Shown: positions 21,651-22,751, counted from the first letter of the stretch. The stretch is DNA of 64,000 nucleotides from Escherichia phage vB_EQ1 (PQ516281), one strand, 5' to 3'. Notes: a model not told the origin generated them from the letters alone. Numbers and translations are program-made.

Positions 21651-22751
21651 TTACGCTGTGAAGATTTTATCCCACATCGCAACAACTGCATCTCGGTTAT
21701 ACTTCTTCCATACTGCTTCAGCACGTTTAACTCTAGCTTCGTATGTGTCAGTGAATTCTAATACAGCTTTTGTGTAAAGCGCAACTACTTCTTTCTTAGG
21801 AGTAGAGGAATCAATTTCTACACGCACAGTATCTGGGTCGTATTCGAATGTCGCATGAGGATAATCCTTAAAAACTAACTGGATTACAGGGACACCTTTA
21901 GAGATGGCTTCAATAGAACTATTCTCTACCGTACCTGTGTCAGGACACGTATTAATAAGTGCTTTAGCTGTTTTAAGACGTTCCATAATTTCACTGTGTG
22001 GAGCATCAATAATAACAGGATATTTAGCTGGTGGTGCCCATTTACTAGGACAATAACCAATACCATTTTCGCCTAGTGCTTTAATTGCTTCAAGAGCAAC
22101 ATCAGTACGACGCATTTTAGTGTCATAACGTTGTGCACTAATAATCAGATCAGTCGCCGGAAGAACTTCAGGTTTCTCATTCAAACAAATAACCGGATAA
22201 TCTTCGGCTTCAAACAACGGATTTGCTCGCCAATAATCATAATCAATTTTGTCAGTCAGACCTGAAGTCATATAACAATATTTGCGTTCAAATTCACGGA
22301 AGGCTTTAGTGGGAGCATAACTCTTACCACCATTCTTATGAATTTGAATAGTCTGGTCCCAAATTTGAACAATACCACGAGATACCGGTTCAAATGGTGT
22401 TGCCATAAAATTCTTATGAACTTTAGAGAGACCTGCGTCTTTAATTGCCTGAACGGTTAGTTTAGTCGGTTCCATAGTAACAACAAAATCGTATTCATGG
22501 ATGCCGGCTAGTTCAACAATCTTACGAGCCATAGTATAACTCATACCTAGACTGAATTTTGTCAGATGACCAACAGGATGGTGTGTAACTTTCCAGTCAC
22601 CAAACGTGTCATTATCAAAGCCGATATAATCAATATCAGCACCAATAGAAACTAAATATTTCAACACATTTAAATGTACTGCTTCAAGGCCACCTTGTAC
22701 ACGGTCAGGATTAAATGGGACTGCGCGAGATGGGATAAACATAACTTTCAT
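21651..22751 (-). CDS. GT-B-fold glycosyltransferase-like protein (366 aa); candidate DNA sugar transferase
   Basis: N-terminus MKVMFIPSRAV...GGLEAVHLNVLKYL and C-terminal E..SIEAISKGVPVI resemble the GT4/GT1 GGxE N-terminus and E-x7-E/(G)PVI motifs; sits where T4 has gene 60 and mobA. Confidence 0.6.
   Translation of the reverse strand: MKVMFIPSRAVPFNPDRVQGGLEAVHLNVLKYLVSIGADIDYIGFDNDTFGDWKVTHHPVGHLTKFSLGMSYTMARKIVELAGIHEYDFVVTMEPTKLTVQAIKDAGLSKVHKNFMATPFEPVSRGIVQIWDQTIQIHKNGGKSYAPTKAFREFERKYCYMTSGLTDKIDYDYWRANPLFEAEDYPVICLNEKPEVLPATDLIISAQRYDTKMRRTDVALEAIKALGENGIGYCPSKWAPPAKYPVIIDAPHSEIMERLKTAKALINTCPDTGTVENSSIEAISKGVPVIQLVFKDYPHATFEYDPDTVRVEIDSSTPKKEVVALYTKAVLEFTDTYEARVKRAEAVWKKYNRDAVVAMWDKIFTA

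What the first reader, a model, noticed from the sequence alone, without database searches (positions are those of the whole stretch)
21651..22751. GT-B-like glycosyltransferase inserted between rIIA.1 and topoisomerase gene 39
The 366-aa ORF has an N-terminal MKVMFIP...GGLE and a C-terminal E..SIEAISKGVPVI, the hallmarks of GT4-type sugar transferases. T4 has gene 60 and mobA at this position. With alpha-gt and beta-gt absent from their usual sites, this is a strong candidate for the transferase that puts the cassette's sugar on hmC DNA; the 299-aa unknown at 43571-44470 is another.
Basis: partly seen in the sequence, partly recalled or inferred. Interest (0 to 1): 0.78.

Follow-up and report, generated by a model that had tools for sequence, protein, structure and literature searches.

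The report
Known phage DNA arabinosyltransferase (RB69 gp3)
The ORF is a real sugar transferase that decorates this RB69-like phage's DNA, but it is already described and crystallised, most likely adds the second arabinose rather than the first, and the modified base is 5-hydroxycytosine, not hydroxymethylcytosine.

Summary
The window is a Mosigvirus (RB69-like) genome. The protein is 363/366 identical to RB69 gp3 (ORF003c) and about 99% identical to PDB 9iqz/9ir0, "phage HY126 glycosyltransferase (with UDP)", released in 2025. RB69 ORF003c was proposed as the DNA arabinosyltransferase in 2018.

- **Base:** the cassette's thymidylate-synthase homologue is 238/238 identical to RB69 gp48, the experimentally confirmed 5-hydroxy-dCMP synthase, and carries its D169N signature. 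The acceptor chemistry is therefore 5-hydroxycytosine, not hmC.
- **Step:** the 299-aa cassette ORF is also GT-B fold and occurs in all 348 cassette-bearing phage records. The 366-aa family occurs only where DNA carries two arabinoses (Mosigvirus, one copy) or three (Acinetobacter phages, two copies). It is 40-43% identical to DLP3 gp76/gp77, which extend arabinose chains on DNA in vitro.

Most likely the ORF is the second, chain-extending arabinosyltransferase. This is already known, so interest is low.

The parts
21651..22751 (-). 366-aa GT-B glycosyltransferase; orthologue of RB69 gp3/ORF003c and the phage HY126 glycosyltransferase (PDB 9iqz/9ir0). Probable second, chain-extending DNA arabinosyltransferase.
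22778..22795 (-). 7-bp GC-rich hairpin followed by a T-rich tract. It overlaps the gene 39 stop codon and ends 26 nt before the ORF's ATG; an AGG ribosome-binding site lies 8 nt before the ATG.
21358..21558 (-). rIIA.1 (downstream neighbour), 66/66 identical to RB69p002.
22794..24611 (-). Unsplit topoisomerase II large subunit (gene 39 plus the gene 60 equivalent), upstream neighbour.
43021..43569 (-). Cassette: thymidylate-kinase-like nucleotide kinase (RB69 gp45, 98.9% identical).
   Evidence: PMC13326640 Table 1
43571..44470 (-). Cassette: 299-aa compact GT-B glycosyltransferase (equals RB69 gp47 and gp46 read as one ORF). Probable first, base-proximal arabinosyltransferase.
44470..45186 (-). 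Cassette: thymidylate-synthase homologue, a 5-hydroxy-dCMP synthase. 238/238 identical to RB69 gp48, near-identical to PDB 9iqc/9ir2, with N at the ThyA D169 position.
45464..46624 (-). Cassette: Peptidase_U32-family protein (RB69 gp50); role unknown.
46682..47083 (-). Cassette: HAD-like phosphatase (RB69 gp51; analogue of HY126 AfhF).
   Evidence: PMC13326640 section 27
47068..48753 (-). Cassette: 561-aa bifunctional sugar-1-P nucleotidyltransferase plus kinase (RB69 gp52:53; analogue of AfhE) that makes UDP-arabinofuranose.
   Evidence: PMC13326640 section 27; PMC6024577
48935..49570 (-). Cassette: SIS-domain arabinose-5-phosphate isomerase (RB69 gp55, 99.5% identical).

Best explanation
The ORF encodes the Mosigvirus accessory DNA arabinosyltransferase, the orthologue of RB69 gp3.

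**Pathway (shown by others for RB69, HY126 and DLP3; inferred here by near-identity).**
1. The cassette at 43-49.6 kb turns dCMP into 5-hydroxy-dCMP using the ThyA homologue.
2. The same cassette turns ribulose-5-P into UDP-D-arabinofuranose using an isomerase, a bifunctional kinase/uridylyltransferase and a phosphatase.
3. The 299-aa cassette GT-B enzyme attaches the first arabinose to the 5-hydroxyl of cytosine.

**Proposed role of the 366-aa enzyme (inferred).** It binds UDP-arabinofuranose in its C-terminal Rossmann domain. The conserved E276/E281 and GVPV segment lies there, and a UDP complex has been solved as 9ir0. It transfers a second arabinose onto the first arabinose of arabinosyl-5-hydroxycytosine in duplex DNA after replication. 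This produces the mix of mono- and di-arabinosylated cytosines reported for RB69, NP, Bas46 and Bas47. The longer sugar chain broadens protection against host nucleases and glycosylases.

**Shown versus inferred.** The fold, UDP binding, orthology and phyletic pattern are shown. The acceptor (arabinose rather than the base), the linkage and timing, and the biological pay-off are inferred.
For: **Identity and fold**
- 363/366 identical to RB69p003.
- About 99% identical to 9iqz/9ir0, 'phage HY126 glycosyltransferase' and the same 'with UDP'.
- The remaining fold matches are all GT-B glycosyltransferases: BshA, PimA and sucrose-phosphate synthase.

**Relation to assayed enzymes**
- Full-length 43% and 40% identity to DLP3 gp77 and gp76.
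- Those two together add a third arabinose to RB69 DNA from UDP-Araf in vitro. Individually they do nothing on 5hoC-only DNA (PMC13326640 section 26).

**Phyletic dosage**
- The 299-aa transferase is in 348 phage records, including Klebsiella, Serratia, Enterobacter, Proteus, Yersinia, JS98-like phages and the mono-pentosylated Shewanella phage Thanatos.
- The 366-aa family is in only 211 records. Mosigvirus-type phages carry one copy and have di-arabinosylated DNA. Acinetobacter phages, including tri-arabinosylated DLP3, carry two copies.

**Other support**
- The two window transferases are unrelated in sequence, so they are not redundant copies.
- The cassette is 98-100% identical to RB69's, including the confirmed 5hodCMP synthase.
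- Published assignments agree. RB69 gp3 is listed as 'beta-arabinosyltransferase 2' (PMC13326640 Table 1). [quoted passage not shown] A Bas46 Aat deletion is viable but sensitised to a defence system (PMC13216743, citing Mahler 2025).
- Purifying selection: 24 synonymous versus 3 nonsynonymous codon changes.
Against: - No paper I could read reports a direct assay of RB69 gp3 or this protein. The two primary papers were not available: He et al. 2026 Nat Chem Biol, the probable source of 9iqz, and Mahler et al. 2025 Cell Host Microbe.
- The PDB entry is titled simply 'glycosyltransferase', and Thomas 2018 proposed ORF003c as the sole arabinosyltransferase.
- No first-step activity has been reconstituted for any of the DLP3 transferases on 5hoC DNA (PMC13326640), so the order of action rests on comparative evidence.
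- The Thanatos paper assigns the 299-aa homologue a UDP-xylose pyrophosphorylase activity (PMC12838424). If that were its only activity, the first transferase would be unidentified.
- My AF2 model of the 366-aa protein is only moderate (pLDDT 65.6, TM 0.6 to 9iqz).
- No Pfam glycosyltransferase model matches.
Confidence: 0.78

Rival explanations
1. The 366-aa enzyme is the primary transferase that puts the first arabinose directly on 5-hydroxycytosine in DNA. This is the Thomas 2018 reading, updated for the revised base. The 299-aa protein would then do something else, such as sugar-nucleotide metabolism or the second addition.
For: - Thomas 2018 (PMC6024577) singled out ORF003c as the arabinosyltransferase.
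- It is the only transferase of the system with a deposited crystal structure, titled 'phage HY126 glycosyltransferase'. The 299-aa protein has no PDB relative.
- The Thanatos paper reports pyrophosphorylase activity for the 299-aa homologue (PMC12838424).
- No first-step activity was seen for DLP3 gp79 in vitro (PMC13326640).
Against: - 137 or more cassette-bearing phage records lack any homologue of the 366-aa protein. At least Thanatos among them still carries a pentosylated cytosine (PMC12838424).
- Copy number tracks chain length (0, 1 or 2 copies for 1, 2 or 3 sugars).
- DLP3 gp76 and gp77 do not modify 5hoC-only DNA (PMC13326640).
- The 299-aa protein is a confident GT-B glycosyltransferase fold, not a nucleotidyltransferase fold.
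- It is retained at 98-100% identity in all Mosigvirus records.
Confidence: 0.12
2. It is an hmC-DNA glycosyltransferase functionally equivalent to T4 alpha-/beta-gt: sugar transferred onto 5-hydroxymethylcytosine.
For: - It shares the GT-B fold with T4 alpha-gt.
- Several GenBank records annotate it as 'putative hmC-arabinosyltransferase' or 'DNA alpha-glucosyltransferase'.
- The 2018 paper described the modification as arabinosyl-hmC (PMC6024577).
Against: - The ThyA homologue in this window is 238/238 identical to RB69 gp48, shown to make 5-hydroxy-dCMP. It has N where T4 gp42 and ThyA have D169, and is only 25% identical to T4 gp42 (PMC13326640).
- NMR and MS of RB69 DNA show an ether link directly to C5 (PMC13326640, PMC13390438).
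- No sequence similarity to T4 alpha-gt or beta-gt was detected.
Confidence: 0.03
3. It is a glycosyltransferase that acts on a non-DNA acceptor, such as host LPS, lipid or a phage protein, and is unrelated to the DNA modification.
For: - The closest solved folds outside phages act on small molecules or lipids (BshA, PimA, WaaG-like).
- The gene lies 21 kb away from the cassette.
Against: - It co-occurs strictly with the 5hoC/arabinose cassette: 155 versus 153 Mosigvirus-type records, and all Acinetobacter records.
- In DLP3 the two homologues sit immediately beside the cassette, and they act on DNA in vitro (PMC13326640).
- The family is absent outside such phages: 11 representatives among 1.84 billion proteins.
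Confidence: 0.03

Closest known systems
RB69 gp3 (ORF003c, NP_861693.1) and phage HY126 glycosyltransferase (PDB 9iqz, 9ir0)
   Same: Same protein for practical purposes: 363/366 and about 362/366 identical. Same position between rIIA.1 and gene 39, and the same cassette elsewhere in the genome.
   Different: Three or four conservative substitutions only (T56N, I231A and T327I versus RB69).
Acinetobacter phage DLP3 gp77 and gp76 (arabinosyltransferases 2/3)
   Same: Full-length homologues (43% and 40% identity) with the same invariant GGLE and TGTVEN.S.EAIS.G.PV motifs. Their activity on arabinosylated DNA with UDP-Araf has been shown in vitro (PMC13326640).
   Different: DLP3 has two paralogues (58% identical to each other), placed directly next to the cassette. 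Both are required together for the third arabinose. Mosigvirus has one copy, displaced 21 kb away, and its DNA stops at two arabinoses.
The cassette's own 299-aa transferase (RB69 gp46:47, DLP3 gp79, Thanatos TH1_063)
   Different: No detectable sequence similarity. It is shorter (299 aa), always adjacent to the 5hodCMP synthase, and far more widespread: 348 records and 138 clusters, against 211 records and 5 clusters. It is the probable first transferase.
T4 alpha- and beta-glucosyltransferases, and T-even second-sugar transferases (e.g. T2/T6 beta-alpha-gt, 'TAGT')
   Same: Post-replicative sugar transfer from a UDP-sugar to modified cytosine in phage DNA, with a GT-B fold. The second-sugar enzymes are the functional analogue of a chain-extending transferase (PMC13216743).
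   Different: The sugar is arabinofuranose rather than glucose, and the base is 5-hydroxycytosine rather than hmC. No sequence similarity was detected, and the genome position differs.
Bacterial GT4 enzymes (BshA, PimA, sucrose-phosphate synthase)
   Same: Best structural matches after the phage protein itself, with a UDP/GDP-sugar donor.
   Different: Only 10-14% identity. No Pfam Glycos_transf_1 or Glyco_trans_4 match. The EX7E motif is replaced by E276-X4-E281. The acceptor is DNA-borne sugar.

Membership tests
GT-B fold nucleotide-sugar glycosyltransferases (GT4-like) | Two Rossmann-like domains with an inter-domain cleft | tested here: met
   A 99%-identical protein has been solved (9iqz/9ir0). 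The AF2 model recovers it (E 1e-52, TM 0.6). There were 372 PDB matches at E<=0.001, and the 50 listed are all GT-B glycosyltransferases.
GT-B fold nucleotide-sugar glycosyltransferases (GT4-like) | Binds a nucleotide-sugar donor | tested here: met
   PDB 9ir0 is titled 'phage HY126 glycosyltransferase with UDP'. This rests on the entry title; I could not inspect the coordinates.
GT-B fold nucleotide-sugar glycosyltransferases (GT4-like) | Matches the Pfam GT4 sequence models (Glycos_transf_1 PF00534, Glyco_trans_4 PF13439) | tested here: not met
   No Pfam family at E<=1 for the ORF. Distant family members give only sub-threshold hits: GT4-conflict 17 bits and Glycos_transf_1 13.6 bits. An exhaustive HMMER profile search reaches only 11 proteins.
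GT-B fold nucleotide-sugar glycosyltransferases (GT4-like) | EX7E motif in the C-terminal domain | tested here: not met
   The sequence shows E276-NSSI-E281 (EX4E) followed by AISKGVPVI. The second Glu and the following helix resemble GT4, but the residue 8 positions upstream is Gly273. The GT4 motif definition is from my own knowledge.
Phage DNA arabinosyltransferase family, RB69 gp3 / DLP3 gp76-77 type | Full-length sequence homology to the named members | tested here: met
   99.2% identity to RB69p003; 43% and 40% over 99% of its length to DLP3 gp77 and gp76.
Phage DNA arabinosyltransferase family, RB69 gp3 / DLP3 gp76-77 type | Co-occurs with a 5hodCMP synthase and UDP-arabinose synthesis genes | tested here: met
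   The complete cassette is present at 43021-49570, 98-100% identical to RB69's, with the D169N signature. All 211 records with the family come from cassette-bearing lineages.
Phage DNA arabinosyltransferase family, RB69 gp3 / DLP3 gp76-77 type | Transfers arabinofuranose from UDP-Araf onto already arabinosylated cytosine in DNA | not testable with these tools
   Shown in vitro only for DLP3 gp76 plus gp77 (PMC13326640). For RB69 gp3 it is a published prediction. Phyletic dosage supports it.
T4-type hmC-DNA glucosyltransferases (alpha-gt, beta-gt) | Sequence homology to T4 alpha-gt or beta-gt | tested here: inconclusive
   hhalign of the 5-sequence family profile against T4 alpha-gt gave probability 0.2%, and tblastn found nothing in the window. 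The profile is very shallow (Neff 1.6). Thomas 2018 reported HHpred E 1.9e-24 to 1XV5 using deeper profiles.
T4-type hmC-DNA glucosyltransferases (alpha-gt, beta-gt) | Acceptor is 5-hydroxymethylcytosine made by a gp42-type dCMP hydroxymethylase | tested here: not met
   The window's ThyA homologue is identical to the RB69 5hodCMP synthase. It has Asn at the D169 position, where T4 gp42 has Asp, and is 25% identical to gp42 (PMC13326640).

The most novel reading that the evidence does not exclude
The evidence does not exclude that the division of labour differs from the simple 'first, then second' model. The 299-aa enzyme might arabinosylate at the nucleotide level: it sits between a dedicated nucleotide kinase and the 5hodCMP synthase, and no DNA-level first-step activity has been reconstituted. 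The 366-aa enzyme would then be the only transferase acting on polymerised DNA. Its relocation to the variable rIIA.1/gene 39 junction would make sugar-chain length a swappable module that sets which host defences the phage escapes.
Probability: 0.12. Interest if true: 0.45.

Novelty: already known. Interest (0 to 1): 0.15.

Why it matters
Sugar decoration of phage cytosines decides which restriction, CRISPR and glycosylase defences a phage escapes, and it affects sequencing and engineering of therapeutic phages. This gene probably sets whether Mosigvirus DNA carries one or two arabinoses. That role has already been proposed in print, the protein has been crystallised, and a deletion has been studied in Bas46. 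The window therefore adds another near-identical copy rather than new biology.

Tried and rejected
- **Pfam and PHROGs scans of the ORF.** There was no Pfam hit, and PHROG 8302 is 'unknown function', so neither named it.
- **Primary papers.** Mahler 2025 and He 2026 are not held. Searches for '9IQZ', for Aat/Bas46 and for 'double arabinosylation' returned nothing further of use. PMC12191111 and PMC13250531 added nothing.
- **hhalign of the family profile.** Comparisons against T4 alpha-gt and against the 299-aa family showed no signal. I attribute this to a shallow profile rather than taking it as evidence of non-homology.
- **Other isolated-phage lineages.** Searching with a distant metagenomic family member (P0008) recovered the same 210 records.
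- **Remnant at the JS98 junction.** I looked for a decayed copy of the gene at the equivalent rIIA.1/39 junction of JS98 and found none. There is only an unrelated, unannotated 111-aa ORF.
- **ThyA alignment.** BLASTP of the ThyA homologue against E. coli ThyA mis-registered the RS motif by two residues. A four-sequence MAFFT alignment resolved it.
- **Promoter scan.** Promoter-like sites were no more frequent than in shuffles (8 versus 12.4 expected), so I make no promoter claim.
- **Recent horizontal acquisition.** I considered and rejected it on composition: GC is 0.37-0.38, the same as the flanks.

Full report
**Observation.** MKVMFIP begins at residue 1, GGLE at residue 20 and ENSSIEAISKGVPVI at residue 276. 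All of these residues lie in invariant columns of an alignment with its nearest relatives. Downstream on the gene strand are rIIA.1 (21358-21558, Pfam T4_RIIA1, E 2e-30) and rIIA. Upstream is a 605-aa topoisomerase II large subunit (22794-24611). T4 has 60, 60.1 and mobA at this junction. T4 gene 60 is the split-off C-terminal part of the topoisomerase subunit, and here gene 39 is unsplit. The ORF therefore sits in a junction that is nearly empty in T4 and does not replace gene 60.

The claim that alpha-gt and beta-gt are absent also holds. Neither T4 protein has a tblastn match in the window (best E 1.8-2.8), and both usual sites fall inside the window. The gp47 and gp55 homologues are 999 nt apart, and the position next to the gene-42 homologue holds other genes.

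**What the genome is.** The 1.55-kb stretch matches 163 phage records at 90-99% nucleotide identity, almost all of them Escherichia and Shigella phages of the RB69 type (Mosigvirus). Against RB69 itself:
- The ORF is 363/366 identical to RB69p003 (ORF003c).
- rIIA.1 is 66/66 identical.
- The genes between uvsX and DNA polymerase are 98-100% identical.
- The ORF shows 24 synonymous against 3 nonsynonymous codon differences from RB69, so it is under purifying selection.

**Fold.** No Pfam model matches the ORF even at E<=1, and its PHROG (8302) has no assigned function. A search of PDB sequences gives a single hit: 9iqz/9ir0 at about 99% identity over the full length. An AlphaFold2 model built from the five available family sequences has only moderate confidence (pLDDT 65.6). 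It still recovers 9ir0_A, 'phage HY126 glycosyltransferase with UDP', and 9iqz_A (E about 1e-52, released 2025-07-16). Every other top match is a GT-B glycosyltransferase, including BshA, PimA, sucrose-phosphate synthase and LmbT.

At sequence level the family is small and isolated. It has five 90%-identity clusters among 5.8 billion proteins and 11 representatives among 1.84 billion in an exhaustive profile search. The classical GT4 EX7E motif appears as E276-X4-E281.

**The base is not hmC.** The cassette's 238-aa thymidylate-synthase homologue (44470-45186) is 238/238 identical to RB69 gp48. It is also near-identical to PDB 9iqc/9ir2/9iqu, which come from the same deposition series as 9iqz. 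Lee et al. 2026 (PMC13326640) showed experimentally that RB69 gp48 converts dCMP to 5-hydroxy-dCMP. They also showed that RB69 DNA carries mono- and di-arabinosylated 5-hydroxycytosine with the sugar ether-linked directly to C5. This revises the arabinosyl-hmC description of Thomas et al. 2018 (PMC6024577). Their diagnostic D169N signature is present here: in a MAFFT alignment the window protein and DLP3 gp80 have Asn where T4 gp42 and E. coli ThyA have Asp. The window protein is only 25% identical to T4 gp42.

Their distributions differ sharply:
- **299-aa protein:** found in 348 phage records from many host genera, including Klebsiella, Serratia, Enterobacter, Proteus, Yersinia, JS98-type coliphages, Acinetobacter and Shewanella phage Thanatos. 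Where annotation is listed, the adjacent gene is usually the ThyA homologue. It forms 138 clusters in the protein database.
- **366-aa protein:** found in 211 records only. About 155 are Mosigvirus-type phages with one copy. Another 55 are Acinetobacter phages, plus one record named Tegunavirus, each with two copies.

Copy number follows the reported chemistry:

| Phage(s) | Copies of the 366-aa family | Sugars on cytosine | Source |
|---|---|---|---|
| Thanatos | 0 | one pentose | PMC12838424 |
| RB69, NP, Bas46, Bas47 | 1 | up to two arabinoses | PMC13326640, PMC13390438, PMC12923530 |
| DLP3 | 2 | three arabinoses | PMC13326640 |

The ORF is 43% and 40% identical over its full length to DLP3 gp77 and gp76. 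In DLP3 these two genes sit immediately beside the cassette. Together they add a third arabinose to RB69 DNA from UDP-arabinofuranose in vitro, and singly they do nothing on 5hoC-only DNA (PMC13326640 section 26).

The published assignments agree with this reading:
- Lee et al. list RB69 gp3 as 'beta-arabinosyltransferase 2' and gp46:47 as 'arabinosyltransferase 1'.
- PMC13216743 cites Mahler et al. 2025 for a viable Bas46 Aat deletion that becomes sensitive to a defence system, and discusses it as an analogue of second-sugar transferases.

I therefore put the second, chain-extending role at about 0.78.

**Caveats.**
- I could not read the two primary papers, so I have no direct assay for this protein.
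- None of the DLP3 transferases has shown first-step activity on 5hoC DNA, and Lee et al. say they cannot tell whether the first sugar is added to the nucleotide or to DNA.
- The Thanatos paper reports UDP-xylose pyrophosphorylase activity for the 299-aa homologue. This sits oddly with its GT-B fold and leaves a small opening for the rival in which the 366-aa enzyme is the first transferase.
- The phyletic argument weighs against that rival: well over a hundred cassette-bearing phages have no 366-aa homologue at all.

**Local context.**
- A 7-bp GC-rich hairpin with a T-rich tail overlaps the gene 39 stop codon and ends 26 nt before the ORF's ATG. An AGG ribosome-binding site lies 8 nt before the ATG.
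- Promoter-like matches are not enriched.
- GC content equals that of the flanks.
- JS98 has the cassette but lacks this gene. At the same junction it has 588 unannotated bases with no remnant of the gene. The junction is thus a variable spot among T4-like phages.

**Verdict.** The gene is already described: predicted in 2018, crystallised with release in 2025, and placed in a pathway in 2025-2026. The DNA base is 5-hydroxycytosine rather than hmC. The enzyme is most likely the second transferase, with the 299-aa ORF as the first. Novelty: already known. Interest: low.

Noticed in passing
window 45464-46624 (-): The arabinosylation cassette contains a Peptidase_U32-family protein (RB69 gp50) of unknown role. 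From my own knowledge, U32-family proteins (RlhA, TrhP) are required for C5 hydroxylation of cytidine and uridine in rRNA and tRNA. That is a curious coincidence in a 5-hydroxycytosine DNA pathway. The DLP3 cluster has no such gene.
   Followed up: no
window 21579-21594 and 21624-21639: An inverted repeat with 16-nt arms (88% complementary, 29 nt apart) fills much of the 92-nt spacer between the transferase stop codon and the rIIA.1 start codon.
   Followed up: no
window 22778-22795 (-): A terminator-like hairpin (AAGCTCC TTTG GGAGCTT, then a T-rich tail) overlaps the gene 39 stop codon, just upstream of the transferase gene. Some GenBank records annotate a terminator here.
   Followed up: partly
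L004 (JS98, NC_010105.1) 2437-3024: JS98 has the cassette's 299-aa transferase but not the 366-aa one. At the same rIIA.1/gene 39 junction it has a 588-bp unannotated gap with an unannotated 111-aa ORF on the gene strand and no remnant of the transferase.
   Followed up: partly
[not shown]
   Followed up: partly
window 22794-24611 (-): The topoisomerase II large subunit is a single 605-aa ORF, as in RB69 and JS98. It is not split into genes 39 and 60 as in T4.
   Followed up: yes
phage record OZ038340.1 (Tegunavirus sp. BRC001): This is the only record named outside Escherichia, Shigella and Acinetobacter phages that carries the 366-aa family. It has two copies, and its hits score like the Acinetobacter phages (39% identity to P0008), so the name may be a misassignment.
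   Followed up: no
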